The position numbers and the translations under genes are program-made. The notes below the pieces were generated by a model. The model saw only the letters and a program-made list of their open reading frames with translations, was not told the DNA's origin and made no database searches. Source: Candidatus Rokuibacteriota bacterium (GTDB lineage: Bacteria > Methylomirabilota > Methylomirabilia > Rokubacteriales > CSP1-6). From it: a stretch of 64,000 nt of DNA. Below, piece by piece: positions 16,927-62,478 of this stretch. Location of the stretch: positions 49,383 to 113,382 of the forward strand of contig JACPSW010000059.1 in the NCBI GenBank assembly GCA_016193045.1, in the 5' to 3' direction. Position 1 is the first letter of the stretch, and each line of letters starts with the position of its first letter.

Positions 16927-16986
16927 CCTACCCTTCTCTCATCGGACGACCGGAATCCCACTAATTGTCATGCGCCACCCCAATGC

Positions 16987-29089: not shown

Positions 29090-29099
29090 TCTCCTGCTC

Positions 29100-29525
29100 C
29101 TAGAAGGTGTTTACCGCCCTCATCGCACAGAGACGAGCCTCGGTCGCTGACAGGACCCAGCCTCTAACGTTGACTACGCGGCCATGCAGGAAATCGTCAC
29201 GTTGCTGCTGGTGCACCAAGTCGCGGAGTTTTTCTATGTCAGTGTCCAGGAGCTCGGCACCACGGCCTGGCCACGTTGAACAAATCACACCAAGCAGCAA
29301 CTGCACGTTCGCCTCGCTGGGGACCTGCTTAAGGTATTCTCGTCCAACGATCGCGGCGCTTTCTTTACAGGCCAACACACCAGCGAGTTTCGAAGCGCCC
29401 GGATCGTGGACTCTGCTCCTACGCACGGCACCCCACGTGCCTAGTGGGCGGCAGAGACCAAGGGCCCCCACCCAAAGCATGAAAGTCAGGAAACGTCGTC
29501 TGAGGATGCTTGTAGACGGGCTCAT
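29100..29525 (-). CDS. Gluconate 2-dehydrogenase subunit-3-family small TAT-exported subunit, the partner of the GMC oxidoreductase.
   Basis: Carries the RRRFLTF twin-arginine signal at the N-terminus and is the small subunit typically encoded beside GMC flavoproteins. It overlaps the upstream GMC gene by 4 nt. Confidence 0.6.
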   Translation of the reverse strand: MSPSTSILRRRFLTFMLWVGALGLCRPLGTWGAVRRSRVHDPGASKLAGVLACKESAAIVGREYLKQVPSEANVQLLLGVICSTWPGRGAELLDTDIEKLRDLVHQQQRDDFLHGRVVNVRGWVLSATEARLCAMRAVNTF

Positions 29526-39661: not shown

Positions 39662-39683
39662 CGGCTTCTCCCTCGGGCCGTCC

Positions 39684-40850
39684 TCAGAGGAGAGCATGTG
39701 AGGCCCGTTCACGCGGGGCGATGAAGGCCAAGACCGCATCGCGGATCCGGTCGGCCGCGTGGCCGTCGCCGAACGCGGCAGCCGCGGCAGCCGAGAAATC
39801 AGCCTGTCCTGCTGGAGCGCGGGCTTCCCATGCCGATACGGCCGCACGGATCGCCTCGGGTTCGATTCCGGCGAGAATGTTGCCACCCCCCTGGAGCGTT
39901 TCGACCCATTCGGTCTCTTCCCGCAGCGTGATACAGGGGCAGCCCAAGAAGAACGCCTCCTTCTGAAGACCTCCGGAGTCCGTGAGGAGCATCCTGGCAT
40001 GGCCGACGAGGGAGAGGGTGTCGAGGTATCCAGCGGGCGGAATGAGTTGCAGGCGCGGATGCGGTGACCACGCGGGGAACCGGGACTGGAGCACCTTCGC
40101 GGTGCGCGGATGGAGGGGAAAGACGAGCCGGGCCGCCGTTGCCGCGATTTCGTTGAGCGCTGACAGCACCTTCCGGAGTCGCTTCTCGTCGTCGGTGTTT
40201 TCCGCCCGATGGATCGTCACCACCCCGTAGCGGCGAGGCTCCAGGGCCAGTCGATCGAGAATGCTCGACCGCTGCGCGGCCAGCCTACGGTTGAACAGTA
40301 CGGCGTCGTACATGATGTCGCCAGTCAGGACCGCACGCTCGGCGAGCCCCTCCTTTTCCAGATTCGCAATCGCGGTTGGAGTGGGCGCCAGCAGGAGGTC
40401 CGACACGTGGTCCGCGACGACCCGGTTGATTTCCTCCGGCATCCGCCGGTTGAAGCTACGGAGGCCGGCTTCGACGTGAGCGACCGGGATGTGGAGTTTC
40501 GCCGCCGACAGCGTGGCGGCGAGGGTGGAGTTGGTGTCGCCGTACGTCACCACGATGTCGGGGCGACCGTTCAGGAGCGCCCCTTCGATTCTGGCGAGCA
40601 TCTGGTCGGTTTGGCTCCCGTGGCTCCCCGAGCCCACACCGAGATTGAACGTGGCGGGTGGAATCGCGAGCTCGTCGAAGAACACGTCGGACATGCCCGC
40701 ATCGTAGTGCTGACCGGTGTGGACGATGATGTGGTCAATGGGCGGACCGCCACGGCGTGTGAAATGCTCGAAGGAGCGCAAGAGGGGCGCGATCTTGATG
40801 AACTGGGGTCGTGCCCCGACAATGCTGACCAGCTTAATGGCCGTCGTCAT
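39684..40850 (-). CDS. wecB: UDP-N-acetylglucosamine 2-epimerase, non-hydrolysing (WecB/WbpI-like).
   Basis: Full-length WecB pattern is present: VGARPQFIKIAPL, HTGQHYD, and DSGGLQKEA. Confidence 0.9.
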   Translation of the reverse strand: MTTAIKLVSIVGARPQFIKIAPLLRSFEHFTRRGGPPIDHIIVHTGQHYDAGMSDVFFDELAIPPATFNLGVGSGSHGSQTDQMLARIEGALLNGRPDIVVTYGDTNSTLAATLSAAKLHIPVAHVEAGLRSFNRRMPEEINRVVADHVSDLLLAPTPTAIANLEKEGLAERAVLTGDIMYDAVLFNRRLAAQRSSILDRLALEPRRYGVVTIHRAENTDDEKRLRKVLSALNEIAATAARLVFPLHPRTAKVLQSRFPAWSPHPRLQLIPPAGYLDTLSLVGHARMLLTDSGGLQKEAFFLGCPCITLREETEWVETLQGGGNILAGIEPEAIRAAVSAWEARAPAGQADFSAAAAAAFGDGHAADRIRDAVLAFIAPRERASHALL

Positions 40851-42039
40851 AGAACTCCACGACCGTGCTCACGACGTGGCGCTGCTGGTCTGCAGTCAAT
40901 TCGGGATAGATTGGAATCGCGAGGGTCTCCCTGGCGGCGCGAAGGGCCTCGGGGCAGTGCGCGGATCCATAACCGAAATGGGCGAAACACCTCTGGAGGT
41001 GAAGCGGCACAGGGTAGTAGATCTCCGAACCCACTTCCGCCCGTGTGAGGTGGTCTTTGAGGTCGTCCCGCCGCTCCGCCCGGACGACGTACTGGTTGAA
41101 AATGTGGCGACAGCCTTCCATCGCGCGAGGAGTTGAGATGTGATCGCCGACGCCCGCCTTCTGGAAAGCAGTGTGGTAATAGCGCGCGTTCTCCTGGCGA
41201 CGCCTCGTCCACCCGTCTAGATATTTGAGCTTGACGAGCAGGACGGCGGCCTGCAGCTCATCGAGCCGGAAGTTGCCGCCGACGACGAGATGGTGGTACC
41301 TGGGCCTGCTGCCGTGGACTCGTAAGATTTTCAGGCGCTCCGCCAGGGTGGGATCGTTGGTCACGCACATTCCCGCGTCACCGAACGCGCCCAGGTTCTT
41401 GCTAGGAAAGAAGGAGAAGCAGCCGATGTCGCCGATACTGCCGGCCCGACGGCGGCCCGGATATTCCGCGCCGATGGCCTGGGCCGCGTCCTCAACCACC
41501 CTGAGGCCATGCCGTCGTGCCAGCTCCATCAACGCATCCATGGCGGCCATCTGTCCGAAAAGATGGACGGGCATCAGGACCTTGACGACGCCCCCGGTAT
41601 TCCGGTCGATCAGACGGCCGGCCCGCATCTCGCACTGCGTCCCGATGAGATCCTCGACGCCAGCCGGCGAGAGGTTGTACGTCTTCGGATCGATGTCGAC
41701 GAAGAGCGGACGGGCGCCGAGGCGCGCGATCGTGCCCGCGGTGGCGAAGAAGCTGAACGCGGTCGTGATGACCCCGTCGCCGGGTCCGACCTCAAGCGCC
41801 ATGAGCGCCGCCAGGAGGGCATCGGTCCCCGATGAGACGCCGACGCCGTACCTGCACCCAGAGTACTCCGCGATACGTTCCTCGAGTTCAGTCACGCGTG
41901 GGCCGAGAATGAACTGCTGTCGCGCGCATACTTCGCGGAGAGCCTCCATGATCTCGGGCTCGATCGCACCATACTGAGCCTGAAGGTCGAGGAGGGGCAC
42001 CGCCAACCGGCGTATCGGTTCTCTCGTCAGGAGCTTCAC
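40834..42039 (-). CDS. DegT/DnrJ/EryC1/StrS-family PLP-dependent sugar aminotransferase (WbpE-like).
   Basis: GTG start at VKLLTREPIRRLAVPLLDLQAQY (42039). The PLP Lys region FSFFPSKNLGAFGDAG is present. Confidence 0.85.
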   Translation of the reverse strand: MKLLTREPIRRLAVPLLDLQAQYGAIEPEIMEALREVCARQQFILGPRVTELEERIAEYSGCRYGVGVSSGTDALLAALMALEVGPGDGVITTAFSFFATAGTIARLGARPLFVDIDPKTYNLSPAGVEDLIGTQCEMRAGRLIDRNTGGVVKVLMPVHLFGQMAAMDALMELARRHGLRVVEDAAQAIGAEYPGRRRAGSIGDIGCFSFFPSKNLGAFGDAGMCVTNDPTLAERLKILRVHGSRPRYHHLVVGGNFRLDELQAAVLLVKLKYLDGWTRRRQENARYYHTAFQKAGVGDHISTPRAMEGCRHIFNQYVVRAERRDDLKDHLTRAEVGSEIYYPVPLHLQRCFAHFGYGSAHCPEALRAARETLAIPIYPELTADQQRHVVSTVVEFYDDGH

Positions 42040-42047
42040 CCGTTCTC

Positions 42048-42650
42048 TCACGTTGGGACGACTTCGGAGACAGTGAGGCCCTTCTTCCGATAGCTGCGAC
42101 GGCAGGCGGCGCAACTCGTCGTCTCGTCCCCATCGTTCGCGATCCCCAGTCCGAGCTTGACACCGCAGGAGCACATCCACCCCCGCAACCGGGCCGGGTT
42201 GCCGTAGACCATCGCGTAGTCCGGAACATCCCGCGTGACGACCGCCCCGGCACCGACGAAGGAATAGCGCCCCAGCGTGGCGCCGCAGATCAGCGTCGCA
42301 TTGGCGCCGATCGTGGCGCCCCGCCGGACGAGCGTGGGCTGGTATTCGTTCTTCCGAGGCACGTGGCTGCGCGGGTTTTCCACGTTGGTGAACACCGACG
42401 ACGGCCCGCAGAACACGTCGTCCTCGAGGATGACTCTCTCGTACACCGAGACATTGTTCTGGATCTTGACGTTGTTACCGATGACGCAGCCCGACCCCAC
42501 GAACACGTTCTGACCGAGGCTGCAGTGTTCGCCGATGACTGCGCCCGTCATGATGTGGCAGAAATGCCAGATCTTCGTGCCCTTCCCGACCGAACAGGGC
42601 TCATCGATGAGCGCCGAGTCGTGGGCAAAATAGCCGCTGCCTTCCTTCAT
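42048..42650 (-). CDS. Hexapeptide-repeat N-acyltransferase, WbpD/WlbB-like, with an unusual C-terminal Cys cluster.
   Basis: Start at [17 protein letters not shown]. Left-handed beta-helix repeats are present. The C-terminal tail (WMCSCG...CAACRR) adds four Cys residues not typical of WbpD. Confidence 0.7.
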   Translation of the reverse strand: MKEGSGYFAHDSALIDEPCSVGKGTKIWHFCHIMTGAVIGEHCSLGQNVFVGSGCVIGNNVKIQNNVSVYERVILEDDVFCGPSSVFTNVENPRSHVPRKNEYQPTLVRRGATIGANATLICGATLGRYSFVGAGAVVTRDVPDYAMVYGNPARLRGWMCSCGVKLGLGIANDGDETTSCAACRRSYRKKGLTVSEVVPT

Positions 42651-44023: not shown

Positions 44024-45045
44024 GAGTTCGACGCTTCCCCGTTCGGGGACGTGGTGTGGCGGCGCGTGACCGTGCGCTGCCATTCGATGGTCCGGGCCAG
44101 ACCCTCCTCCAGCCCCACCGTCGCTTTCACCCCCAGAATCCGCTCGCAGCGGGAGACGTCGGGGACGCGGCGTCGGACGTCCTCGTAGCTTCTTCCCGTG
44201 AACGACTCGTACGGCACGAACCGGAGTTTGAGGTCCGCGGGAGTGTTGCACAGGCGCTTGACGATTCTGGCCAGGTCGAGAATGGTGATCTCATGGGAAC
44301 TGCCGATGTTGAAGATTTCGCCGTTCGCCTCGGCCGTCACCATCGACGCGTATATGCCCTCAACGGTGTCGCTCACATACGTGAAGCTTCTCGTCTGGAG
44401 CCCGTCGCCATGAATCGGGATCTCGCGACCATTCAGCACGGCTTCGATGAAGACGGCCTGCGGGCCGCCCCACCAGCTGAGGTGCTGGCGGGGTCCATAG
44501 GAGCCGAAAAACCGGAGGACGGTGATCGGCAGACCGAAGCTCTCCTGGTAGGCGAAGGCGAGGTGCTCGTCGAACAACTTGGACACTGCATAACTCCATC
44601 GGGCGACTTTGGAGGAGCCGATCACGCACTCATCATCCTCCGCGAAGGGGACCCTCCCGTTGCGCCCGTACACGTCGGAGGTGGAGGCCAGCACCAACTT
44701 GGCGCGATTCTGCCTGGCGAATTCGAGAACATTCTCGGTACCCCTGGAGTTGATCCTCAACGTCTTCAGGGCATCCCCGTAGCGGGGAATCTTGAACGCG
44801 GCCAGGTGGACCACGCAGTCGAACTCCTTCGGCAGATCACCAAAGACCGATGCCTCCGTGACGTCCCTCTCAAGGAAGCGAAACGCAGCGCTATTCAAGT
44901 GCGCGGCGATATTCTCGAGCTTGCCCATCGAGAGATTGTCAATGCCAACCACTACATGACCAGCCGCCAGCAACTTGTCGAGCAGGTGAGATCCCAGAAA
45001 CCCTGCGGCGCCCGTGAGCAGGATCCTGTCGGGCGGATTCCTCAT
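44020..45045 (-). CDS. NAD-dependent nucleotide-sugar epimerase/dehydratase (an extended SDR).
   Basis: Start at [27 protein letters not shown] catalytic YxxxK is present. Confidence 0.85.
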
Positions 45046-46220
45046 GGTCTGGCGCTCCCGTCGTCCCGGGTCGTTCGGTAGATGGTGCTGCCGAGGTGGA
45101 AGATCTCCTCGAAGTAGCGCTTGCTCTGCAGCGCCAGGATGCCCAGGCTGATGAACTGGATCGCGAGCGTCAGACTCATGAGGCCGACGAAGAAGGTGTG
45201 GGGCGCCTGATGATAGGCGGTGGCCACCGCCGCCGAAGCCCGGGAAAAGAACCACGTGTACTGGGGAAACTTCTGATACTCAGCAAGGAAGTGGACGAGC
45301 ATCCAGGCATTGACGTAGAGGGAAAAGAGGAGCAGCACGAAGCCGGGGATGATGAAGAACATGAACGGCTTGAAGAGGAAACCGGATAACAGGGTGGACA
45401 TGGTGTGCCGGAGGACCTTCATGCTCGACTTGCGCCTCGGGCCGGCGGCGTTCTGGAGGCGCCAGTCCAGGTCGGCGGGAATCTCCTCGATCCGGGCGCG
45501 CAGCAGCATGGCCTTGTAGATCACCTCGGGGTTGATGTCCATACCCATGGACCGCAGGTTGAGCGCCCGTACGAATTTCGCGTCGTACACTCGGACCATG
45601 CTGGTCAGCGTCGACAGGCCGCCCTTGGCGGTGGCTGACAGAAAGCGATTGGCGCAGACACTCAACGTCCGTCGCAGCCAGGGGACGTTCGAGATGTAAC
45701 CGCCCTTCATGTAGGGGGATGCCACCACGACCTTGGCCCTCGTCTCCCTGATCCTGGTCAGCAGCCGGCGGATGTGATCGGCCGAGTAGCTCAGGTCCAC
45801 GTCCATCGTGACGATGTACTCGCCCCGGCAGTGGTTGAAGGCGAACTTGAGCGCCTGGCCGAGGCCGAAGTTGATCGCGTGGTGGAGGACGCGGATGTTG
45901 TCCCGCGTCCTGGCGAAGGCCTCCACCAGGCTGCCGGTATCGTCGCTGCTGCCGTCGTTGATGACGACGACCTCCCAGTTGTACTCGTCCTCGAGGGACT
46001 CCATGTACCGGCAGAGCACCGCCAGGTTGGCCTCGACGATGGCCGCCTCGTTGTAGGCCGGCACGACCACCGAGACGAGGGGCTTGGGCGCCGGCCGCTC
46101 TGCCGCGCCGTTGCCCCGTCCAACAAACGTGGATGCAGCTTCCGTCTGCGCGGACAGACCCATCACGCTCACCTCCCCAACATTCGATCCCATGTCCTCT
46201 TCTCCCCAGGGAAAGGGCAT
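45042..46220 (-). CDS. GT2-family polyprenyl-phosphate glycosyltransferase (DPM1/GtrB/ArnC-like) with C-terminal transmembrane helices.
   Basis: Motifs VSVVVPAYNEA, DGSSD, and DVDL (DxD) are present. C-terminal hydrophobic helices match ArnC/GtrB-type enzymes. The exact start is uncertain (alternative Met residues at +10 and +20). Confidence 0.75.
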   Translation of the reverse strand: MPFPWGEEDMGSNVGEVSVMGLSAQTEAASTFVGRGNGAAERPAPKPLVSVVVPAYNEAAIVEANLAVLCRYMESLEDEYNWEVVVINDGSSDDTGSLVEAFARTRDNIRVLHHAINFGLGQALKFAFNHCRGEYIVTMDVDLSYSADHIRRLLTRIRETRAKVVVASPYMKGGYISNVPWLRRTLSVCANRFLSATAKGGLSTLTSMVRVYDAKFVRALNLRSMGMDINPEVIYKAMLLRARIEEIPADLDWRLQNAAGPRRKSSMKVLRHTMSTLLSGFLFKPFMFFIIPGFVLLLFSLYVNAWMLVHFLAEYQKFPQYTWFFSRASAAVATAYHQAPHTFFVGLMSLTLAIQFISLGILALQSKRYFEEIFHLGSTIYRTTRDDGSARP

Positions 46221-46239: not shown

Positions 46240-47559
46240 TCACGCCGTTCGTCGATGGGCAGGATCTTCGGCTTCTACCCGCGCATCACCGACGCGAACA
46301 TCTCGACGATCCCGTGGCTCGCGCGAGGCGGCCGGGCCGCCCGGGCGGCCGGCGCGAGCGACGGCGAGAAGCAGCCCCGGACTCGGGACCTCGCCCGTAC
46401 GCGGCGTCGTGTTCCAGAGGGGGCGCGCCAGGCCCAGGGCGCCGCGCGCGAACCCAAGCAGGAGCCCAGTGTTCAACGCGAGAAAGTACCGTACCGCGGA
46501 GGCCACCAACGCGAGAACCCGGACGAACCCGGCCCCCAGCCCGAGCCCGTAGAAGGCGAGCTGGCCGATGAAGAGCCACCGGAAAAAGGGCGTGCCGAGA
46601 AGCCAGAGATTCGCCCCGAAGGCAATGAGCAGAAGCCAAGGCCCGAACCATCGAAGAACCTTGTGTGAGAAGTAGGTAAGCGCCACCATTCCCTTCCACG
46701 GAAGCAGGAGCTGCCACGTCCAGAGCAGGGCCTGAAGATCACCCGCTCCGATCCGCGCCCGTCGGCGAAACTCGTCCCGGACCTGCTGAGGCGAGGTCTC
46801 CCAGGCTCGGGCTTCCGGTACGAAAAACACACCACCGCCCGAGCGCACCCGCATCAGCATCGGAATCAGGAAGTCGTCGACGATCGCTCGGGTGGGAAGC
46901 GGCTGATATCGCTTGCGACGAAACGCGTAGATGGCGCCGTTCGCCCCCAAAACGCAGCCGAAATGCGACTCGAGGGTTTTCATCCACGTTTCGTACCGCC
47001 AGTAGGGGCCGTCGAGGTTCCCAGCCGCCACTGACGACCGCAGCTCCAGTCGTCCCACGACCGCACACGCCGACGGATAGCGCCAGAGCGCGTCGACCAG
47101 CTTCCGGACGGCGTCGGGAAGAAAGAAGGTGTTGGCGTCGGTGCAGACGATGATCTCACCCCGCGCCTGGGCGACGAGGTCGTTCAAGACGCTCGCCTTC
47201 CCTCTTCTCGGCTCGAAGGCAATGAGGCGAACGCCCGGGGCGGCGCACCCGGCGATCACCTCGCACGTTCGATCCGTGGAGCCGTCGGACCCGACGAGGA
47301 TCTCGAGATGTTCCACGGGGTAGTCAAGCTCGAGGAAGTTTCTCACGCGGTCGCCGATGACGTGCTCCTCGTTGTACGCCGAGAGCACGATGCTGACGTC
47401 TGGCCACGCCGGCCTCGGACCGCCGGGGCCGCCACCGGCGGAGGGGATGAGCCGGCTCAGCACCCAGAGGCATCCCGGGTAGATCCCATAGGCGTAGACC
47501 AACAACCCCACCGAGGCGACCAGGAGCCATCCGGCGAGAATCTCACCGTCCGCCATCAC
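46240..47559 (-). CDS. GT2-family membrane glycosyltransferase (processive/CsbB-like).
   Basis: An N-terminal transmembrane helix is present. Motifs VSIVLSAYNE, DGSTD and TDAN are present, followed by C-terminal transmembrane helices. Confidence 0.8.
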   Translation of the reverse strand: MMADGEILAGWLLVASVGLLVYAYGIYPGCLWVLSRLIPSAGGGPGGPRPAWPDVSIVLSAYNEEHVIGDRVRNFLELDYPVEHLEILVGSDGSTDRTCEVIAGCAAPGVRLIAFEPRRGKASVLNDLVAQARGEIIVCTDANTFFLPDAVRKLVDALWRYPSACAVVGRLELRSSVAAGNLDGPYWRYETWMKTLESHFGCVLGANGAIYAFRRKRYQPLPTRAIVDDFLIPMLMRVRSGGGVFFVPEARAWETSPQQVRDEFRRRARIGAGDLQALLWTWQLLLPWKGMVALTYFSHKVLRWFGPWLLLIAFGANLWLLGTPFFRWLFIGQLAFYGLGLGAGFVRVLALVASAVRYFLALNTGLLLGFARGALGLARPLWNTTPRTGEVPSPGLLLAVARAGRPGGPAASREPRDRRDVRVGDARVEAEDPAHRRTA

Positions 47560-47668
47560 GCGCTCCGCTTGGTCAGCAGGGACCAGGCGGTCTGGACCAG
47601 GACAGCGCCAACGCCGCAGAGCGGGAGGTCCTCCACCTTCGCCTCACCGCGTTGCGAGAGAAACTGTT

Positions 47669-49726
47669 TCACGAGAGCTCCATGGCCCAGCGGAGCAGCG
47701 GCTCGATCGCGGGCGAGACACCGCCTCGGACAGGCATCAGGACGAAGCGGATTTCGATCGGGACCACGCCCCGCCTCTCGTAGGTGACGACCGGGGCCCT
47801 CTCGATCACCCCGTACCGAGGGGAGAGCCAGCCGTCGCTCACCGCCACGGACAGCTCCGGATCCTGGTTCCAGACCACCATCAACCGCCGGTCGCGGTCT
47901 CCGACGTGGATCACCCACGGATCCATCGAGGCGACGGCGACCTCCAGAGGGGCCAGGTGCAGGAACCCCCGGACGGTGTGCGTCCCCTTGCCCGTGAGGA
48001 GGTCACGAACAGTCCAGACACCCAGCCGTTTGTCGAACCAGATCTGGCGGCGGTGGACGACGGGCTCGGGCAGACGGGTATAACCGTTGTGCTCCCCGTC
48101 GAAGCGGTCGAGGTCGTCGTGGACCTCCCAGCCGCGCAGGGTGAAGAGCACGGTTTCGTCCCGCTCGACCGGGAAGAGGTTCGGGTCGTCGAGGAGCCGC
48201 GTCTGCTCGTATCCGTCGACCATGACCGTGTTGTGCGACGCCGTGCTCCGGAACCGGTTCCTCCACTCGGGGGAGACGGTGTAGGCGTACGTCCCGGGAT
48301 CCTGCACGTACGCCGTCCCAGCGGCCCAGCACTCGAACGAGAGGAGGTCATGGTGCAGGTGGCCAGCCGGCCCCGTGCTCGGGCCACTCACCACCAGGTG
48401 GCGCCCCTCGCCCCGCATCACGAAGAACCCACCGTGGGGAAAGGCCCGGGAGGGCACGGTCTCGGGCTTCTCCGGAATGGCGTCATAGGTTCGGAGCCCG
48501 GTCAGCCCGAGCCACCAGAGGTTCGCCGCCCCGAGGGCCCCGCTTGCCGCCTTGAAATCAGATCGGCCGAAGAGCGCGGCGCCGGCGGCCAGCAAGGCCC
48601 GGTGACTCCGCGGGTCTCGGCTGCCCAGGTCAATCAGACTGCCGTCATCGCAGTCCCCGATGGCGGGGAAGGTCCCGTCCGGGCGGGTATAGGCGAGGGT
48701 GAACTCCAGCATGCGCTCGACGCGCTCGAGAGCCGCCGGCGGCGGCTCCAGGCCGTTTCGCCGGCAGAGGCTCAGGGCCACGAGCAAGCAATGGAGGACG
48801 TCACCGTGATATCCGATGGCATGCTCGTAATCGACCCCGTCGGCCGTTACCTGGCGGGTGACCTCGCCCCACACGATGCGCCAGCCTCGCCCGAGCCACC
48901 GGCGGGAGTCCCGGACCTCGCGCAGTACCACCCCCAGCGCGAGGAGCCCGAGCCCGTCGGTTATAAAGTGGTTCCCGGGAAGCGGGCAGATCTCCAGGTT
49001 CTGGAGGATGAACCGGGCGTGATCAGCCAGGGCGGCCAGGAAACGCCGCTGGCGCCCCTCGTCGAAGACCGGCGCCTCCAGAAACAGGAAGAACGCCCAC
49101 AGCCAGTTGACGGCGCGAACGGCGGCCTCCATGGCGCATGTCCAGTTCACGCCGAATCCGGCAGGGTTGGCAGCCATCCAGCTCTCCCACTGGGCCACGA
49201 ACTCGGCAGCGTACCGTTCGCTCCCCGTGAGCCAGTAGGCCTGGCCGAGAGTCACCCACTGATGGCAGCGGGAGAGCTCCCAGACCACCCTGACGTCAGA
49301 GGGGCGGCCGGGGTCCAGGTAGTCGATCGCCGTGTGATGGCGAAGCTCCCACCGCAAGCCTGAGATCGGGTCCCGGTGCCAGTCGATCGGGTGGGCCAGC
49401 TCGACGGGTCCTCGACCCAGCAGCGGAACCCGATGGCCGCACACCTCGTCCGCGGCGCGTACCGTGGCCGCCACCGCCTCGGGCTCGTGGGCCTGCAGCG
49501 CCTCGACCAGGGCCCACCGGTCCGCCGGATGCACGAAGAAGCGGGAGGCGGCGCTCGCCCGGAGGTCTCGATGCACCTCCACAGTGACGCCGTTCGTCCG
49601 CCACGCCGACGCGCTATCGGTCATCAGCCGATGGGTCAACGCCCGGCCCCGCTGCGTGAGCTTCTGGGCTAGGATCGGAAGCGGCATCTTCAGCGCCCTC
49701 GCCACGTTCGTGCCACGCGTCCTCAT
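47669..49726 (-). CDS. Heparinase II/III-like protein (alpha/alpha-toroid plus beta-sandwich); a candidate polymer-level uronate epimerase or lyase.
   Basis: Start at MRTRGTN (49726). Large conserved blocks (WELSRCHQW, AEFVAQWESWMAANP...NWTCAMEAAVRAVNW, HGHADLLSF-like HHDLLSFE) are typical of the Hepar_II_III family. There is no signal peptide. Confidence 0.7.
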   Translation of the reverse strand: MRTRGTNVARALKMPLPILAQKLTQRGRALTHRLMTDSASAWRTNGVTVEVHRDLRASAASRFFVHPADRWALVEALQAHEPEAVAATVRAADEVCGHRVPLLGRGPVELAHPIDWHRDPISGLRWELRHHTAIDYLDPGRPSDVRVVWELSRCHQWVTLGQAYWLTGSERYAAEFVAQWESWMAANPAGFGVNWTCAMEAAVRAVNWLWAFFLFLEAPVFDEGRQRRFLAALADHARFILQNLEICPLPGNHFITDGLGLLALGVVLREVRDSRRWLGRGWRIVWGEVTRQVTADGVDYEHAIGYHGDVLHCLLVALSLCRRNGLEPPPAALERVERMLEFTLAYTRPDGTFPAIGDCDDGSLIDLGSRDPRSHRALLAAGAALFGRSDFKAASGALGAANLWWLGLTGLRTYDAIPEKPETVPSRAFPHGGFFVMRGEGRHLVVSGPSTGPAGHLHHDLLSFECWAAGTAYVQDPGTYAYTVSPEWRNRFRSTASHNTVMVDGYEQTRLLDDPNLFPVERDETVLFTLRGWEVHDDLDRFDGEHNGYTRLPEPVVHRRQIWFDKRLGVWTVRDLLTGKGTHTVRGFLHLAPLEVAVASMDPWVIHVGDRDRRLMVVWNQDPELSVAVSDGWLSPRYGVIERAPVVTYERRGVVPIEIRFVLMPVRGGVSPAIEPLLRWAMELS

Positions 49727-49733
49727 CGGCTGG

Positions 49734-50855
49734 CTAGCCTCTCGCGAAGCCGGCGGCGGCCACTCCGCTCTCGCTCCGGAGTGGGCCGATCCCGACGCGC
49801 TCGTAGACGTCGAGCAGCCGATCCTGGGCGCCCGCGTCTTCGCATCGCGAGCGCCAGTCGCCGGTGAGCCGCAGGTGCAAGGCCCGGGCGACCTTCTCGG
49901 CGAGATCTTGTACGTCCCCTCGGCGACAGAGGAGGACGCCGGCCGGCCGGAAGTCCGTATCGGTGGCGACGACGGGGACGCCCAGCGCCAAGGCCTCCCG
50001 CACCGAGGAGGCGTCGCCATCGATGTAGCTCGGCCGGACATAGACGTCGGCTCGTGCCAGGAGGGCCAGGCATCGCTCGTGGGCGACCTCTCCTAGGCAG
50101 AGGACGCGATCCTCGAGCCCGCGCTCGGCTATGAGGCGGCGCAGCGCGGCGTCGCCCCCGGAGCCGATCACGATGCATCCCAAGCGGGGGAAGTGCGCGC
50201 TGAGACGGGCGACCGCGTCCACCACGATCGGAAGGCCGTACCACTCCGGCTCACGTCCGCCTATCGTGGCCACCAGCGGCGTGAAGGCGCTCAGCATGCG
50301 CTGGTCCGCCTCCGTCAGCGGGGCAGTCGCGCGGATCCCCAGGTAAGCGGGGATGACGGACAGCCGGTCCGTCTGGACGCCGAGGCCCGCGACCGCCTCG
50401 CGGATCTTGGCGTTGACGCAGATGACGTGGGCGAACGACGCGATGCCGAGGCGCACCAGGGAGCGGCTGGCGGGGTTGAGACTCAGCAGGTACCCCGGGG
50501 CCAGGCCAGAGTGAAGCGTGAGCAGGCCCGTCGCCCCACGCATCCGGAGGACCATGGCCGCCACCACGACCATCAAGCAGCTCTTCCGGTTGTCGCAGTT
50601 GGTGTGGAGGTGGAGTAGCGCCCCGGGCACGAGGCTTTCGCATAGCGCGGTGAGGAAGTCGACACGCCGGGCGATGGCACGGTACTCCGCGCTCGGCGGC
50701 GCGCCCCGACGGAGGTTGAGGATCTTGACGGGCACGCCGTGCGTCCGGAGCCGCTGGGCCAGCTCGCTGATGTGCAGACCTTCCCCGCCCATGGGCGGGG
50801 GGTAGTAACCAGCCAACACCACGGGCCTCAGGCCGACGCCTACGGTCGCCCGCAT
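49734..50855 (-). CDS. Glycosyltransferase family 4 (GT-B fold).
   Basis: Pattern includes the C-terminal EALALGVPVVATD (the E-x7-E region). Confidence 0.75.
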   Translation of the reverse strand: MRATVGVGLRPVVLAGYYPPPMGGEGLHISELAQRLRTHGVPVKILNLRRGAPPSAEYRAIARRVDFLTALCESLVPGALLHLHTNCDNRKSCLMVVVAAMVLRMRGATGLLTLHSGLAPGYLLSLNPASRSLVRLGIASFAHVICVNAKIREAVAGLGVQTDRLSVIPAYLGIRATAPLTEADQRMLSAFTPLVATIGGREPEWYGLPIVVDAVARLSAHFPRLGCIVIGSGGDAALRRLIAERGLEDRVLCLGEVAHERCLALLARADVYVRPSYIDGDASSVREALALGVPVVATDTDFRPAGVLLCRRGDVQDLAEKVARALHLRLTGDWRSRCEDAGAQDRLLDVYERVGIGPLRSESGVAAAGFARG

Positions 50856-50865: not shown

Positions 50866-52020
50866 TCATGCCGCGAGGACCTGGTCGTACAGAGCAGCGT
50901 ACCTGTCCACCATGAGCTCGAGGCGCGCGTGGGCGTTCACGTAATCCTCTCCGGCCTTGGCCAGCCTTCGACCTAGCCCGCCGTCCCGGCGCAGCTGGAG
51001 CAGCGCCCGGGCCAGGGCGGCTGAATCGCCGGGAGGCACCAACAGTCCGGTTTCCCCGTCGGCGATGACCTCCCGGATGCCCAGCACGCGAGTCGCCACG
51101 ACGGGCTTTCCCGCCGACATAGCCTCGAAGACTGTGAGGGGCATGCCCTCGTAGTGGGAGGGTAGGCAGTAGACGTCGAACACCGAATACAGTTCGGGGA
51201 CGTCGAGGCGAGCGCCGAGGAAGCGCACCCGGTCCCGCACGGTCAGCGCCCCAGCGAGCGCCTCGAGCTGCTCGCGCCGCTCCCCCTCGCCCACCAGGAC
51301 CAGCCAGGCATCCGGAACGACCAGTCGGAGTTGGGCAAAGGCCCGGAGGAGCCCCTCGTGGTTCTTCTGAGGCCGAAGATTGCCTACGAGGCCGATCACC
51401 CACGCGTCGGACGGAAGGCCGAGTTCACGTCGTTTCGCCGCGCTGTCGTGAGGTTGGCCGAAGCGCCGGACGTCCACGCAGTTATAGATCACTTTGACAC
51501 GATCGGGGGACACGCCGGCTTCGTCGAGCAAATAGGCGCCCACGGCGTCGGAGGCGCCGGTCACGAGATCGGGACGCGACAGGAGCCAGCGGCCGACCCA
51601 CACCAGCCATCGGGGATACCCGCCGTCGACGTCGGGACGGATCTGCTCGGTGTGCACCCAGCGCCACCGCCGTGCCCTCCGACCGGCAAGGAACGCGTGC
51701 AGGAGTGGAGTCAGGTGGTGCGTGTGGAGGATGTCGATCTCATCGCGCTCCATCAGGGCCTCGAGCCGGGCCACCCGGGCCCGCAGTGCGTGAAGCTTCC
51801 CCATGGCGCGCGGCCGACGTCCGTTGACCGGATCGCCGATCGTGTGCACGGGACATCCTCGCGCCGCCAGAGCTTCCCCGACCAGCCCCCCGGTCTGGCT
51901 ACACGCGAACACCCGAAACCGGTCCGGGTCCAAGTGGGCGGCCAGGTCGGCGACCAGACGCTCCGTCCCTCCGGTCGCGAACGCGGGAAGGAAAAACAGG
52001 ACGTTCGTCCGTGAAACCAT
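50866..52020 (-). CDS. Glycosyltransferase family 4 (GT-B fold).
   Basis: Motifs LPSHYEGMPLTVFEAMSAGKPVVAT and GETGLLV are present. Confidence 0.8.
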   Translation of the reverse strand: MVSRTNVLFFLPAFATGGTERLVADLAAHLDPDRFRVFACSQTGGLVGEALAARGCPVHTIGDPVNGRRPRAMGKLHALRARVARLEALMERDEIDILHTHHLTPLLHAFLAGRRARRWRWVHTEQIRPDVDGGYPRWLVWVGRWLLSRPDLVTGASDAVGAYLLDEAGVSPDRVKVIYNCVDVRRFGQPHDSAAKRRELGLPSDAWVIGLVGNLRPQKNHEGLLRAFAQLRLVVPDAWLVLVGEGERREQLEALAGALTVRDRVRFLGARLDVPELYSVFDVYCLPSHYEGMPLTVFEAMSAGKPVVATRVLGIREVIADGETGLLVPPGDSAALARALLQLRRDGGLGRRLAKAGEDYVNAHARLELMVDRYAALYDQVLAA

Positions 52021-52029: not shown

Positions 52030-53337
52030 TCACCGCGTCGGGGAGACCAACACCGCCAGCCGAGCGCCGATCACCCGGATGGCCGCCGCGAGGCCGGCCA
52101 GGTAAAAGAGCAGGAAGCCGTAGGAAATGGGCAGGAAGGAGGCGCCGACCAGAAAGCTGTAGATCGCCAGTTCCAGGCCGCTGGCTATGGCGATGACCTC
52201 GCGCGCCTCCGGGACCGGCCTGAGCCGCCTCTGCGTCTGTCGGAGCCCTCGCAGGCTCTGAACGAACAGCAGGACGTAGACGAGCAGTCCCGGAAGGCCG
52301 AGGTCGGCCCCCACCCGCAGAAATACGCTGTGGGTCACGTGTTCCCCCTTGAACCCCTTCTCGACGTACACAAGGCCCTCCATCCCCAGGCCTGCGCCGA
52401 TCAACGGATTCTCCAGCATGGACCTGAAGGCGACCTGCATCTGTTGCGAGCGGCTCTGGATGGAGCCGGCGCGGTCGCGGTCCCAATCGAAGAGGCTGTA
52501 CAGCCGGTCGGCGTAGCCGTCCGGAGCCAGGAAGATGCCCACGACGACAAGCGCCGATGCCCACAGCAGCGCCACGGGCCCCCGTGCCCGGACCCATCTT
52601 GCCAGCAGCACCGCAACAATCAGCGTCAAGCCGAGGAACCCACCGCGGGAAAAGCTGACGATGACCCCTGCCACCGCCAGACCCATCCCCGCCAGGAGCA
52701 GCACCTTCACGAGGCGCCGCCGCGCCACGAAATAGAGCCCGATCGTGAGCGCGAGGATCACGTTGAGGGTGAGGGCGAGATCGACGGCGTTGTCGGCCAA
52801 CTGGTTGGCGTAGCCCCAGATGCGGCCAGGCTCACGGGACATCGTGTGCTCGGTGGCGAAGTTGCGCAGCGCCGTCGCCGAGATGATGAAGCCGTAGAGG
52901 ACGATGGACGCGACGAGCAGCTTGAGGCGTCGCATCGTCTCCAGTAGATTGGCGATCAGAAAGAAGACGATGACGCTCTTCACGAAAGTGCTGAGGAAGA
53001 ACTCGAGGCTGCCGCCGGGCGAGAGCGAGAACGGGATCGACACCACGGCCGCGAGCGCGAACCACAAGACCAGGCGAACCTCGGGCGTGACGACCGTCAC
53101 GGGCCGCCGGTTCATGAGACGGCTCAGGACATAGGCGACCGCGGCCAGGCCTGCCGACGTCGCCGCGAGACGGAGCGGCTCCAGGCTCGGGAAGATGTTT
53201 TGTGGCGCGATGAACAGGACGAACGTGAAGAACATGAGGCACCAGAACGGGACGACGTTCTCCCGGGGTGGGGCCGCCGACGTCCGGGACGCGCCGGAGC
53301 GGGCCCGCGCCTCGCTCACGATCCCGGCGGCCGTCAC
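52030..53337 (-). CDS. O-antigen/EPS polymerase or ligase-family membrane protein (Wzy_C domain).
   Basis: About 10 transmembrane helices, with the characteristic periplasmic loop FSRGGFLGL. Confidence 0.65.
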   Translation of the reverse strand: MTAAGIVSEARARSGASRTSAAPPRENVVPFWCLMFFTFVLFIAPQNIFPSLEPLRLAATSAGLAAVAYVLSRLMNRRPVTVVTPEVRLVLWFALAAVVSIPFSLSPGGSLEFFLSTFVKSVIVFFLIANLLETMRRLKLLVASIVLYGFIISATALRNFATEHTMSREPGRIWGYANQLADNAVDLALTLNVILALTIGLYFVARRRLVKVLLLAGMGLAVAGVIVSFSRGGFLGLTLIVAVLLARWVRARGPVALLWASALVVVGIFLAPDGYADRLYSLFDWDRDRAGSIQSRSQQMQVAFRSMLENPLIGAGLGMEGLVYVEKGFKGEHVTHSVFLRVGADLGLPGLLVYVLLFVQSLRGLRQTQRRLRPVPEAREVIAIASGLELAIYSFLVGASFLPISYGFLLFYLAGLAAAIRVIGARLAVLVSPTR

Positions 53338-53380: not shown

Positions 53381-54910
53381 TCACCCCTCTAGAGCTTCCC
53401 GGGCGGGGAGACCACCCAGCGCGCGGAGCCTTCGGCCCAGGGCCTGGATGGCTTTCTTTTCGCCGCTGCTGAGCACCGCAAACCGCCACAGCATCACGAC
53501 GTAGATCGCCCCGAAGGCCACACCGGCGGCGGCGAGGATCAGCCAGGAGGCCAGGAGTCCCGTTGTCTTCACCAGCAGCACCGGAATCGCCGACACGAGA
53601 GAGGCCGCGACGATCCGGGCCAGCACGCCGAGCGGCCATACCTTCGCGTACGGCAGGCCGGTGAGGCGGCTGACGCGGACGAGCAGGATCACGTGGGTGG
53701 CCGCGAGCGCCAGGACGAAGGCGAGCGGCGCGCCCGGGAGGCCGAGCGTCGGGGGAAGCACGGTCAGGAGCCCCACACACACCATGCCGCGGACCGCGTA
53801 CATGAAGAACAAGAAGCGCGTGTCGGCCCACGCCCGGGGCACGTAGTCGAGCTGGGTCGCCATGAGGGGAAGCACCAGCAGGGACACCCGGAAGACCGGC
53901 ACGGCGTCCACGAAACGGTGCGTGTACAGGAGCGTGATCACCTCGCCGGCGAGGAGCTCGAGCAAGACGAACAGGGGCAGGCAAACCAGCGCCACCAGCC
54001 GGATGCCGGCGCCGATCGTGTCGTGGATCTGGTCGCGGGCGCCGACCTGCGCCAGCCGGGTGACCTGCACAACGACCATACTGACGACAGCGCTGTAGAT
54101 CACATCGACGAACGGGACACTCATGGAGCCCACCGCGAACACGGCGAACGTCCGGGTGTCATACCCCCAGGCGACGTAGTACTGCGGCGCCGCCAAGGCG
54201 AGGACCTCCACGATGTGGCCGCCCCAAAAAGGGATCGCGTAGTTCCACTGGCGCCCCACGGGCCCCCAGGACAGCGCCCGGAAGGACAGGAGGCGGGCCC
54301 GACGGAGATAGAGGAGGAGCGCGGTGATCCGTGCGGCGTGGACCACGGTCACGGCCCACAGAATGGCGGGCACGCCTCCCCCGGCCAGGAGCACTCCCAG
54401 GACGAGGGCGGCGAGAGCGAGATCTGAGACGCCGTAGGCCACCGCCGCCTGGCGGGCGCGCTGCCGCGCGATGAGGATGGCTTCCAGCACGGAGCTGACG
54501 AGCGTCGCGCCCAGAAACACCGCCAGTTGAGGCGCCAGGGGACCCAGGAGATTCTCGTAAAAGGCTGCCCCCCACCACGGCGCCCCAGCAACGAGCGCCG
54601 CCCCGCCGACGACGGCCACGAGCGCCAGCACGGCCAGGCTCTGGGAGACGTACTGGGGTCTGGCCCGCTCGTCGCGCTGGAGGAAGTAGTACAGGCTGGC
54701 GGGCAGGCCGAGATCCAGCAGCAGAATGAACGTGGTCTGCAGCAGGAAGGCCTGCTTGTACAGTCCGAACTCGATCTGGGGCAACTGCCGGGCCAGGACC
54801 ACGGCCATGGCGAACCGGCAGACGAACCCCGCCCCCCGTCCCACCACCAGCGCGGCGGTGCCTCGCCCGAAGCTCGAGTCCACGGCTGGCCGCGAGGGGG
54901 CCTTAAGCAC
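53381..54910 (-). CDS. Wzx-type oligosaccharide flippase (MOP superfamily polysaccharide biosynthesis protein).
   Basis: 509 aa with 12-14 transmembrane helices. The composition and length are typical of Wzx/RfbX flippases. Confidence 0.75.
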   Translation of the reverse strand: MLKAPSRPAVDSSFGRGTAALVVGRGAGFVCRFAMAVVLARQLPQIEFGLYKQAFLLQTTFILLLDLGLPASLYYFLQRDERARPQYVSQSLAVLALVAVVGGAALVAGAPWWGAAFYENLLGPLAPQLAVFLGATLVSSVLEAILIARQRARQAAVAYGVSDLALAALVLGVLLAGGGVPAILWAVTVVHAARITALLLYLRRARLLSFRALSWGPVGRQWNYAIPFWGGHIVEVLALAAPQYYVAWGYDTRTFAVFAVGSMSVPFVDVIYSAVVSMVVVQVTRLAQVGARDQIHDTIGAGIRLVALVCLPLFVLLELLAGEVITLLYTHRFVDAVPVFRVSLLVLPLMATQLDYVPRAWADTRFLFFMYAVRGMVCVGLLTVLPPTLGLPGAPLAFVLALAATHVILLVRVSRLTGLPYAKVWPLGVLARIVAASLVSAIPVLLVKTTGLLASWLILAAAGVAFGAIYVVMLWRFAVLSSGEKKAIQALGRRLRALGGLPAREALEG

Positions 54911-62368: not shown

Positions 62369-62478
62369 GGCCTGCCACCGGTAGAGCCCTATGTGGCTGT
62401 CGTACTCGACCAGGTAGCGTGGCTCGCCCACGGCCTCACTCCGTCTTGATGCCCCGCACTTCCTCGCTCTTCCACCAA

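What the first reader, a model, noticed from the sequence alone, without database searches (positions are those of the whole stretch)
47669..49726. A cytoplasmic heparinase-II/III-like protein embedded among glycosyltransferases is a candidate uronate C5-epimerase.
The Hepar_II_III fold (alpha/alpha toroid plus beta-sandwich) is shared by polysaccharide lyases and by animal heparan-sulfate glucuronyl C5-epimerase. A bacterial member of this family has been reported to epimerise glucuronate in heparosan.

Here the protein has no signal peptide and sits between two GT2 genes and two GT4 genes, in a locus that makes uronic acids (Ugd, WbpA). A biosynthetic, polymer- or oligomer-level epimerase role is therefore more plausible than a degradative lyase role.
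Basis: inference. Interest (0 to 1): 0.55.

Follow-up and report, generated by a model that had tools for sequence, protein, structure and literature searches.

The report
Cytoplasmic heparinase-like enzyme in polysaccharide synthesis
A gene that looks like a sugar-chain-cutting heparinase sits inside a polysaccharide-building operon and belongs to a very large uncharacterised family that probably flips (epimerises) acidic sugars during synthesis rather than cutting them, but this remains unproven.

Summary
Window 47669-49726 (-) encodes a 685-aa Hepar_II_III_N + Hepar_II_III_C protein with no signal peptide. It lies 7 bp downstream of two GT4 genes and upstream of two GT2 genes, in a Wzx/Wzy locus.

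It is closest to PL12 heparinase III. It keeps that enzyme's Asn/Tyr/His catalytic triad (N252/Y306/H458).

It belongs to a very large unnamed clade (4,046 50%-identity clusters at E<=1e-30). All 81 sampled homologous loci are biosynthetic. Rare GT4-heparinase fusions exist.

Close relatives (64-74% identity) sit in a module of AsnB-like amidotransferase, this gene, and a 712-aa ADH/GFO bi-domain oxidoreductase. The same module, with an orthologous oxidoreductase, lies in the Ralstonia solanacearum EPS-I operon. EPS-I contains L-GalNAcA, although the operon supplies UDP-D-ManNAcA.

In the window that module is broken. AsnB is cleanly deleted, and only a 38-codon relic of the oxidoreductase remains.

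The epimerase idea is therefore plausible and gains new circumstantial support, but is untested. The animal analogue by fold is dermatan-sulfate epimerase 1, not heparan-sulfate Glce. Catalytic residues cannot separate lyase from epimerase.

The parts
47669..49726 (-). Heparinase II/III-family protein, 685 aa. It is cytoplasmic. Predicted (alpha/alpha) toroid (about residues 50-416) plus beta-sandwich (about residues 427-667). Putative catalytic residues are N252, Y306 and H456/H458. Further clade-invariant residues are D476 and H498-N499.
47556..47672 (-). 38-codon relic of the N-terminus of an ADH_zinc_N + GFO/IDH/MocA bi-domain oxidoreductase. Its GTG overlaps the heparinase-like gene's TGA, and its own TGA overlaps the GT2 start. 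The rest of that gene and about 5.6 kb more are deleted relative to relative L092.
   Evidence: phmmer hit to residues 2-36 of the L088 fusion. Sequence VKQFLSQRGEAKVEDLPLCGVGAVLVQTAWSLLTKRSA* against MKQVFVQRGQVAVEEAPVPLCRPGGVLVRTAWSVLS. tblastn 51% identity over 37 aa, E 1e-6. The blastn alignment to L092 runs about 100 bp past the stop codon.
49734..50855 (-). GT4 glycosyltransferase immediately upstream (7-bp gap). In relative L090 an AsnB-like amidotransferase gene lies between this gene and the heparinase-like gene. It is precisely absent here.
   Evidence: Pfam. blastn synteny: window 53598-49731 matches L090 1-3823, and window 49728-47668 matches L090 5635-7695. L090 gene table.
50866..52020 (-). 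GT4 glycosyltransferase, nearest to the TIGR03088 PEP-CTERM/XrtA-type GT at 183 bits (below cut-off).
46240..47559 (-). GT2 glycosyltransferase with an N-terminal hydrophobic segment, immediately downstream.
45042..46220 (-). GT2 glycosyltransferase.
52030..53337 (-). Wzy-type polymerase (Wzy_C).
53381..54910 (-). Wzx-type flippase (Polysacc_synt).
60024..61334 (-). Nucleotide-sugar 6-dehydrogenase of the UDP-ManNAc/UDP-GlcNAc type. It is the likely source of the N-acetyl-hexosaminuronic acid.
62479..63774 (-). Initiating polyprenyl-phosphate glycosylphosphotransferase (Bac_transf, TIGR03025).
38645..42180 (-). WbpB-like GFO 3-dehydrogenase (38645-40000), intact WecB/WbpI-like 2-epimerase (39684-40850) and DegT aminotransferase (40834-42180). 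Together they suggest a 2,3-diamino- or ManNAc(A)-type sugar pathway.

Best explanation
Proposal. The gene encodes a cytoplasmic, probably membrane-peripheral enzyme that works together with glycosyltransferases. It uses the Asn/Tyr/His machinery of the heparinase/alginate-lyase/DS-epimerase fold to abstract the C5 proton of a 4-O-substituted N-acetyl-hexosaminuronic acid residue. The residue is probably ManNAcA-type and sits on the undecaprenyl-diphosphate-linked repeat unit. The enzyme then re-protonates C5 from the other face. This is a C5-epimerisation giving an L-configured uronic acid (L-gulo from D-manno).

Role of the lost partners. In the ancestral module, an adjacent bi-domain oxidoreductase would additionally invert C3 through a keto intermediate, giving L-galacto as in EPS-I L-GalNAcA. 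An AsnB-like enzyme would amidate the carboxyl group. This window has lost both partners, so here only the C5 step would remain.

Shown: fold, conserved triad, cytoplasmic location, strictly biosynthetic context, GT4 fusions, a shared module with the EPS-I operon, and purifying selection.

Inferred: epimerisation rather than elimination, the identity of the substrate, and action at the lipid-linked level.
For: 1) Family and fold. Pfam N and C domains. PL12 HepIII is the best sequence and structure match. The HepIII triad Asn240/Tyr294/His424 aligns to N252/Y306/H458, which are invariant in 32 clade members.

3) Cytoplasmic location and coupling to glycosyltransferases. There is no signal peptide or TM segment. 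The gap to the upstream GT4 is 7 bp. Two GT4-heparinase fusion proteins (1105 and 1197 aa) are among the best 150 representatives.

4) Context. Of 40 homologous loci with about 10 kb on both sides, 32 have an AsnB-like gene, at least 29 a GT4, 23 a WecB and 20 a UDP-sugar 6-dehydrogenase. None looks catabolic.

5) The module. Relatives at 64-74% identity have AsnB-GT4-AsnB-HEP-[712-aa ADH/GFO fusion]. That fusion is 41% identical over its full length to the one next to the heparinase-family gene in the R. solanacearum EPS-I operon.

6) The EPS-I argument. EPS-I contains alpha-L-GalNAcA-(1->3)-beta-D-Bac (composition). The operon encodes WecB and WecC, which make UDP-D-ManNAcA. From my reading of the annotated products, only these two genes lack an obvious role, and they would have to account for the C3 and C5 inversions. 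Mutants of both behave like other eps biosynthesis mutants.

7) Selection. The gene is intact and under purifying selection (dN/dS 0.25 against L090, the same as pairs that keep the full module). It was retained through two independent deletions of the oxidoreductase, in the window and in L090.
Against: - The complete lyase triad is retained, including the Tyr that protonates the leaving O4 in lyases. Nothing in the sequence excludes beta-elimination.
- No family member has been assayed, and no glycan structure is known for this organism.
- The link to EPS-I runs through a paralogous clade that is only 27% identical (95 bits, no closer than PL12 lyases). That clade lacks the His at the H456/H458 columns.
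- The window has lost both conserved partners, AsnB and the oxidoreductase, and its first wecB copy is 5'-truncated. The gene's role here may therefore be altered or residual.
- Only half of the full-flank loci carry a sugar 6-dehydrogenase within 10 kb.
- The sampled loci over-represent Pyrinomonadaceae.
Confidence: 0.45

Rival explanations
1. It is a true beta-eliminating lyase working in the cytoplasm for biosynthetic housekeeping. It could trim or terminate chains, or cleave stalled undecaprenyl-diphosphate-linked intermediates to recycle the lipid carrier. This would parallel the role of AlgL-type lyases encoded in alginate operons.
For: The closest sequence and structure relatives are all lyases. 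The Asn/Tyr/His triad is fully conserved. From established knowledge, glycanases and lyases encoded inside biosynthetic operons are a known theme.
Against: The known operon-encoded lyases and glycanases are periplasmic, whereas this protein has no signal peptide and occurs fused to cytoplasmic GT4 domains. In a Wzx/Wzy pathway only short repeat units exist in the cytoplasm. Tight conservation next to sugar-modifying enzymes (AsnB, bi-domain oxidoreductase, WecB) fits a modification step better than a clearance step.
Confidence: 0.2
2. It is a C5-epimerase acting on the nucleotide sugar (for example UDP-ManNAcA to UDP-L-GulNAcA), not on a lipid-linked oligosaccharide. It would supply the adjacent GT4 with an L-configured donor.
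For: WecB lies immediately upstream in 20 of 73 loci. A GT4 fusion is equally compatible with channelling of a donor. Some clade-B loci show the module next to nucleotide-sugar pathway genes.
Against: All characterised members of this fold bind oligo- or polysaccharide in a cleft, with the uronate 4-O-substituted. From memory, no nucleotide-level uronate C5-epimerase of any fold is known.
Confidence: 0.12
3. In this particular locus the gene is a functionless survivor of a decayed module. It is still intact, but it no longer contributes to the polymer.
For: AsnB is precisely deleted. The partner oxidoreductase is reduced to 38 codons and about 5.6 kb is missing. The first wecB copy is 5'-truncated.
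Against: The reading frame is full length and every clade-invariant residue is kept. dN/dS is 0.25, the same as in lineages with the intact module. L090 lost the oxidoreductase independently, at different breakpoints, and also kept this gene. The tight operon spacing is preserved.
Confidence: 0.1
4. It is a catabolic cytoplasmic oligo-uronate lyase, like the exo-acting PL15/PL17 enzymes, that happens to lie in a glycan locus.
For: Fold similarity to PL15 Atu3025 and PL17 Alg17c. Absence of a signal peptide is compatible with this.
Against: None of the 81 related loci shows transporters or uronate-catabolism genes. All show glycosyltransferases, flippases or polymerases, and sugar-nucleotide enzymes. 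The NCBIfam HepC models score only 60-105 bits against cut-offs of 600-700.
Confidence: 0.03

Closest known systems
PL12 heparinase III (HepC; PDB 4MMH, 4FNV, 5JMD)
   Different: Only 17-23% identity. The NCBIfam HepC equivalog models score 60-105 bits against cut-offs of 600-700. HepIII is secreted and catabolic. This protein has no signal peptide and occurs only in biosynthetic operons.
Human dermatan-sulfate epimerase 1 (DS-epi1, PDB 6HZN)
   Different: 13-14% identity, with no detectable sequence relationship. DS-epi1 is a Golgi-luminal glycoprotein acting on chondroitin, whereas this is a bacterial cytoplasmic protein. The resemblance suggests how the protein may work, not that it belongs to the DS-epi1 family.
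Heparinase-family protein of the Ralstonia solanacearum EPS-I operon (RS_RS21995; QKZ34664.1) and its roughly 610-aa clade
   Same: Hepar_II_III family, no signal peptide, embedded between an ADH/GFO bi-domain oxidoreductase and a GT4. That oxidoreductase is orthologous (41% identity, full length) to the one next to close relatives of the window gene. AsnB is a frequent neighbour. 39 columns are invariant across both clades, including N252, H253 and Y306.
   Different: Only 27% identical to the window protein. It is shorter and lacks the H456/H458 histidines at the aligned columns. It is itself uncharacterised, known only from fitness data. In the window the partner genes are deleted.
Heparan-sulfate glucuronyl C5-epimerase (Glce) and its bacterial homologue
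   Same: The same proposed chemistry: C5 inversion of a polymer-bound hexuronate through Tyr-based acid/base catalysis.
Mannuronan C5-epimerases AlgG/AlgE
   Same: Bacterial polymer-level uronate C5-epimerases encoded in biosynthetic operons.
   Different: From established knowledge, these are right-handed beta-helix proteins that are periplasmic or secreted. The heparinase-like protein has a different fold and compartment. The window does encode three secreted beta-helix proteins of unknown function.

Membership tests
Pfam Hepar_II_III (PF16889 + PF07940) | Both domain models match above their gathering scores. | tested here: met
   125.2 bits (cut-off 22) and 131.5 bits (cut-off 24).
Pfam Hepar_II_III (PF16889 + PF07940) | (alpha/alpha) toroid followed by an antiparallel beta-sandwich. 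| tested here: met
   AlphaFold model with pTM 0.90. Two-domain matches to PL12, PL15, PL17, PL21, PL33 and PL35 structures.
CAZy PL12 heparinase III lyases | Catalytic Tyr/His base-acid pair plus an Asn neutraliser. | tested here: met
   N252/Y306/H458 align to Asn240/Tyr294/His424 of 4MMH and are invariant in the clade.
CAZy PL12 heparinase III lyases | Sequence membership at the equivalog level (NCBIfam HepC models). | tested here: not met
   105 bits against cut-off 700, and 60 bits against cut-off 600. Only residues 144-359 match.
CAZy PL12 heparinase III lyases | Secreted or periplasmic location and a catabolic gene context. | tested here: not met
   No signal peptide. All sampled loci are biosynthetic.
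CAZy PL12 heparinase III lyases | Beta-elimination activity yielding 4,5-unsaturated uronates. | not testable with these tools
   Requires an enzyme assay.
DS-epimerase-type C5-epimerases | Toroid + beta-sandwich architecture superposable on DS-epi1. | tested here: met
DS-epimerase-type C5-epimerases | His/double-Tyr motif and a metal site on the His-x-His loop. | tested here: inconclusive
   H456-x-H458, D476, H498 and Y482 are invariant in the clade.
DS-epimerase-type C5-epimerases | C5-epimerase activity (C5-H exchange, appearance of the epimer). | not testable with these tools
   Requires a D2O/NMR assay.
Glce / bacterial heparosan C5-epimerase | C5-epimerase C-terminal domain, or structural similarity to Glce. 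| tested here: not met
AsnB / bi-domain oxidoreductase / heparinase-like / GT4 module (EPS-I type, uncharacterised) | An adjacent ADH_zinc_N+GFO bi-domain oxidoreductase. | tested here: not met
   Only a 38-codon relic remains at 47556-47672. The gene is intact in relatives L088 and L092.
AsnB / bi-domain oxidoreductase / heparinase-like / GT4 module (EPS-I type, uncharacterised) | An adjacent AsnB-like amidotransferase. | tested here: not met
   No AsnB homologue anywhere in the window. It is precisely deleted relative to L090.
AsnB / bi-domain oxidoreductase / heparinase-like / GT4 module (EPS-I type, uncharacterised) | An adjacent, translationally coupled GT4. | tested here: met
   GT4 at 49734-50855 with a 7-bp gap.

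The most novel reading that the evidence does not exclude
The cytoplasmic heparinase II/III-like proteins of bacterial glycan loci (thousands of sequence clusters across many phyla) would be the bacterial counterparts of dermatan-sulfate epimerase. They would invert C5 of lipid-linked N-acetyl-hexosaminuronic acids. Alone, or combined with a bi-domain oxidoreductase (C3 inversion) and an AsnB-like amidotransferase, they would generate the L-GulNAcA / L-GalNAcA(N) residues of bacterial polysaccharides. To my knowledge the biosynthetic origin of these residues is unknown. The window would show the minimal, partner-less version of the module.
Probability: 0.4. Interest if true: 0.8.

Novelty: new variant of a known kind. 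Interest (0 to 1): 0.6.

Why it matters
L-configured hexuronic acids occur in virulence polysaccharides. Examples are L-GalNAcA in Ralstonia EPS-I and in several Pseudomonas aeruginosa and Vibrio vulnificus antigens. To my knowledge no enzyme has been assigned to their C5 inversion.

If this family does that step, three things follow:
- A 'heparinase' annotation present in thousands of genomes would be wrong in kind, because the enzymes would be biosynthetic rather than degradative.
- A second, independent bacterial solution to polymer-level uronate epimerisation would be defined, in a different fold from AlgG/AlgE.
- Animal DS-epimerase would gain plausible bacterial functional relatives.

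It would also give a concrete, assayable target in the EPS-I pathway of a major plant pathogen.

For this window specifically, the gene is an ordinary member of that family. It lies in a locus that has recently lost the gene's usual partners.

Tried and rejected
Literature.
- No paper describes a biosynthetic Hepar_II_III protein.
- Only one 2026 preprint mentions the EPS-I 'heparinase-family protein', and only through fitness data.
- Two papers wanted for checking were not held: the bacterial Glce homologue (JBC 2013) and the P. aeruginosa LPS review. One EPS paper did not give the sugar configuration.

A second structure-gene correlation.
- I searched with the P. mosselii clade-B protein, hoping for P. 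aeruginosa or V. vulnificus strains with known L-GalNAcA antigens.
- Many Pseudomonas species appeared, but none with a known structure.

Other checks that led nowhere.
- An exact-sequence look-up of the 685-aa product found nothing, because the public gene call starts at Met14.
- I tested whether the GT4 adjacent to the gene is orthologous between the two clades. No clear orthology was found.
- I looked for the oxidoreductase relic in L090. There is none. L090 instead keeps a frameshifted GT4-like gene that the window lacks, so the two deletions are independent.

Ideas rejected.
- Glce as the structural analogue.
- Catalytic-residue comparison as a way to tell lyase from epimerase.
- A catabolic PUL-type role.
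- A 4-keto route for the C3/C5 inversion. I rejected this on chemical grounds only: 4-keto-hexuronates decarboxylate, as in UXS/ArnA chemistry. This is inference.
Full report
1. THE OBSERVATION

The window is about 65-70% G+C. The minus-strand ORF 47669-49726 begins at an ATG 7 bp after the TAG of the upstream gene.

Its 685-aa product matches Pfam Hepar_II_III_N (4.9e-36) and Hepar_II_III_C (4.7e-38).

One public gene call of the identical protein starts at Met14 (P0001, 672 aa). The residues upstream of Met14 are conserved in homologues, and one homologue has Leu at that position. I therefore keep the 685-aa form.

The surrounding genes all lie on the minus strand with tiny spacers. In order they are:
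- an initiating phosphoglycosyltransferase (62479-63774);
- a YvcK/CofD-like protein;
- a UDP-ManNAc/GlcNAc-type 6-dehydrogenase (60024-61334);
- two secreted beta-helix proteins;
- a 5'-truncated wecB;
- Wzx;
- Wzy;
- two GT4 genes;
- the heparinase-like gene;
- two GT2 genes;
- an SDR;
- an FAD oxidoreductase;
- DegT;
- an intact wecB-type 2-epimerase;
- a WbpB-like GFO dehydrogenase;
- a polysaccharide deacetylase;
- a GT-C-like membrane protein;
- an AMP-ligase;
- acetyltransferases.

The 'Ugd' (15616-16926) belongs to a separate sugar cluster 31 kb away.

2. WHAT THE PROTEIN IS

Sequence. Among solved structures, the best sequence hits are PL12 heparinase III proteins (1e-24).

Structure. 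An AlphaFold model built on 32 homologues is confident (pLDDT 85, pTM 0.90). It shows a helical toroid followed by a beta-sandwich.
- Next come PL35, PL17, PL39, PL15, PL40 and PL33 lyases.
- Heparinase II comes after that.
- Heparan-sulfate Glce does not appear in either list.

Catalytic residues. The published triad of heparinase III 4MMH is Tyr294/His424 with Asn240 as neutraliser. With a numbering offset of 24 in the phmmer alignment, these map to Y306, H458 and N252.
- All three are invariant in a 32-member alignment of the clade. So are H456, D476, Y482 and H498-N499.
- The machinery for abstracting the C5 proton of a uronate is therefore intact.

Limits of the residue argument. The DS-epi1 structure paper states that all catalytic residues of that epimerase are conserved in heparinase II. 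It also states that minute active-site changes may switch lyase to epimerase.

3. LOCATION

The N-termini of the query and 31 homologues are arginine-rich and amphipathic, without a hydrophobic core. No 19-residue window in the query reaches TM-like hydrophobicity.

As an internal control, three beta-helix proteins in the same window have textbook signal peptides.

Two of the best 150 family representatives are GT4-heparinase fusions (1105 and 1197 aa). A third is a methyltransferase fusion. GT4 enzymes use nucleotide sugars in the cytoplasm, so these fusions support both a cytoplasmic location and functional coupling to a glycosyl-transfer step.

One caveat applies. Fused gene calls in metagenomes can be assembly or frameshift artefacts.

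4. THE FAMILY AND ITS CONTEXT

Size. The family is very large: 4,046 50%-identity clusters at E<=1e-30 and 10,670 at E<=1e-10. It spans Chloroflexota, Acidobacteriota, Nitrospirota, Bacteroidota, Planctomycetota, Spirochaetota, Bacillota, Actinomycetota and Proteobacteria. The only names it carries are 'heparinase II/III family' or 'alginate lyase family'.

Sampling. I fetched 80 genome loci plus several metagenome loci and scored the neighbours.

Immediately adjacent genes, out of 73 non-redundant loci:
- AsnB-like glutamine amidotransferase: 33 (27 downstream, 6 upstream);
- WecB: 20, mostly in Pyrinomonadaceae, so phylogenetically biased;
- GT4: roughly 24;
- a GFO/ADH_zinc_N oxidoreductase: 5;
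- also Wzx, methyltransferases, APS kinase and GT2.

In the 40 loci with about 10 kb on both sides:
- 32 have AsnB;
- at least 29 have a GT4;
- 23 have WecB;
- 20 have a nucleotide-sugar 6-dehydrogenase.

No locus shows transporters or uronate catabolism genes. This is a biosynthetic clade.

5. THE MODULE AND THE RALSTONIA LEAD

Finding the lead. A tblastn search of plasmids found a distant homologue (27% identity) on the R. solanacearum megaplasmid. It lies inside the EPS-I operon.

Operon order: epsA/P/B, wecB, wecC, a flippase-like and a polymerase-like gene, GT4, acyltransferase, a 713-aa ADH_zinc_N+GFO 'bi-domain' oxidoreductase, the heparinase-family gene, GT4, and PglC/D/E/F-like genes.

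What EPS-I contains. EPS-I is built from GalNAc, a bacillosamine derivative and galactosaminuronic acid. The uronic acid is alpha-L-GalNAcA linked 1->3 to beta-D-Bac (citing Orgambide 1991).

The argument by elimination.
- WecB and WecC give UDP-D-ManNAcA.
- L-galacto differs from D-manno at C3 and C5.
- From my reading of the annotated products, every other gene in the operon has an obvious role. The two unexplained enzymes would therefore correspond to the two unexplained inversions. This is my inference.
- A 2026 RB-TnSeq preprint lists both genes as uncharacterised. Their mutants show eps-like mild fitness defects.

The clade. This roughly 610-aa clade is tightly conserved (55-60% identity across Pseudomonas, Thiothrix, Rhodoferax and Marinobacterium). 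In P. mosselii and Marinobacterium it sits in the order AsnB, bi-domain oxidoreductase, heparinase-like, GT4, PglC, PglD, PglE, PglF. That gene set fits an L-GalNAcA-(1->3)-Bac disaccharide.

The connection to the window.
- The window protein is no closer to this clade (95 bits) than to PL12 lyases (90 bits).
- However, its own close relatives (64-74% identity; L088, L089, L092) carry AsnB-GT4-AsnB-HEP-[711/712-aa bi-domain oxidoreductase].
- The L088 oxidoreductase is 41% identical over 690 residues to the Ralstonia one.
- 17 of the 81 non-redundant sampled clade-A loci have such a fusion gene.
- The two heparinase-like clades thus share an orthologous partner, which argues for equivalent roles.

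6. WHAT HAPPENED IN THIS WINDOW

The relic. Directly after the stop codon, a GTG that overlaps the TGA opens a 38-codon frame. It reads VKQFLSQRGEAKVEDLPLCGVGAVLVQTAWSLLTKRSA*.
- This matches the N-terminus of the bi-domain oxidoreductase (L088: MKQVFVQRGQVAVEEAPVPLCRPGGVLVRTAWSVLS...).
- tblastn gives 51% identity over 37 residues, E 1e-6.

DNA synteny.
- Compared with L092, about 5.6 kb is missing. That stretch holds the rest of the oxidoreductase, an SQHop-cyclase-like gene, a formyltransferase and a GT4-like gene.
- Compared with L090 (80% identical protein), the AsnB gene between the second GT4 and the heparinase-like gene is precisely absent.

Independent losses. L090 lost the oxidoreductase with different breakpoints. 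It has no relic, and it retains the GT4-like gene, which is frameshifted. The two losses are therefore independent, and the heparinase-like gene survived both.

Selection. Pairwise dN/dS is 0.25 between the window and L090. Pairs that keep the full module give 0.23-0.25. I see no sign of relaxed constraint, although pairwise values cannot isolate one branch.

Other signs of rearrangement. The first wecB copy lacks about 40 N-terminal residues, because the adjacent beta-helix gene runs into it. The locus is a rearranged mosaic.

7. MECHANISM

Proposal. I propose that the protein abstracts H5 of a 4-O-substituted N-acetyl-hexosaminuronate. Asn252 would neutralise the carboxylate, and Tyr306 and His456/458 would act as acid/base. 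The protein would then return a proton to the opposite face.

Substrate and timing. It would act on the undecaprenyl-PP-linked repeat unit right after the neighbouring GT4.

Role of the partners. In the full module, the bi-domain oxidoreductase would invert C3 through a 3-keto intermediate, and AsnB would amidate C6. Without these partners, as here, the product would be the L-gulo epimer.

Shown: fold, triad, compartment, context, fusions, shared module, selection.

Inferred: epimerisation rather than elimination, the substrate, and the lipid-linked level.

The main rival is a genuine cytoplasmic lyase with an editing or recycling role. The sequence cannot exclude it.

8. NOVELTY AND VERDICT

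The gene is a typical member of a very large family that has only a misleading name. I found no characterised member and no paper proposing a function, within the limits of a capped full-text search. Its supporting statements about Glce and about a characterised bacterial family member are inaccurate.

The new elements from this analysis are:
- the family-wide biosynthetic context;
- the GT4 fusions;
- the AsnB / bi-domain oxidoreductase module shared with the EPS-I operon, whose product contains an L-hexuronic acid;
- the demonstration that this window carries a decayed version of that module.

Noticed in passing
window 47556-47672 (-): A 38-codon relic of an ADH_zinc_N+GFO bi-domain oxidoreductase gene lies between the heparinase-like gene and the GT2 gene. 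It marks a deletion of about 5.6 kb relative to relative L092.
   Followed up: yes
window 49727-49733 versus L090 3823-5635: An AsnB-like amidotransferase gene present in the 80%-identical relative is precisely absent between the second GT4 and the heparinase-like gene.
   Followed up: yes
window 54903-55940 (-): The first wecB copy lacks about 40 N-terminal residues, including the nucleotide-binding start. The preceding beta-helix gene runs into it. It is probably a truncated pseudogene. A second, intact wecB lies at 39684-40850.
   Followed up: partly
window 55783-57633 (-), 57646-60018 (-), 11937-13883 (+): Three paralogous secreted proteins carry a signal peptide, a Big_7 Ig domain and a right-handed beta-helix. 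One also has a C-terminal LamG domain. Two of them sit inside the polysaccharide locus. They could be extracellular polymer-modifying enzymes (lyase, hydrolase or AlgG-like epimerase). They have no NCBIfam match.
   Followed up: partly
window 13904-21358 (-): A second sugar cluster holds a PHP_C protein, an SDR epimerase/dehydratase, a TuaD-like UDP-glucose 6-dehydrogenase, a 730-aa GFO+SDR bi-domain oxidoreductase (a different fusion from the ADH+GFO one) and a GT4-like gene.
   Followed up: partly
window 61331-62581 (-): A YvcK/CofD-related UDP-GlcNAc-binding protein is encoded between the initiating transferase and the sugar dehydrogenase of the locus.
   Followed up: no
window 26000-30000: G+C drops to 0.56-0.58 against 0.62-0.71 elsewhere. 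The region contains an 837-aa ORF (26576-29089, -) with a multi-TM-looking N-terminus and no Pfam match, next to a GMC oxidoreductase. It may be horizontally acquired.
   Followed up: no
window 23032-24444 (-): An RCC1-repeat (beta-propeller) protein with a C-terminal Big_2 domain.
   Followed up: no
L092 10113-12169; L089 19051-20124; four clade-A loci: Relatives of the locus carry an SQHop-cyclase-like gene plus a formyltransferase, a sulfotransferase, or an APS kinase next to the module. This hints at further modification (formylation, sulfation) of the same polymers.
   Followed up: no
P0345, P0356, P0270: Natural fusions of the heparinase-like protein with an N-terminal GT4 (two cases) or a methyltransferase (one case). 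About eight other representatives have unexplained extensions of 100-170 residues.
   Followed up: partly
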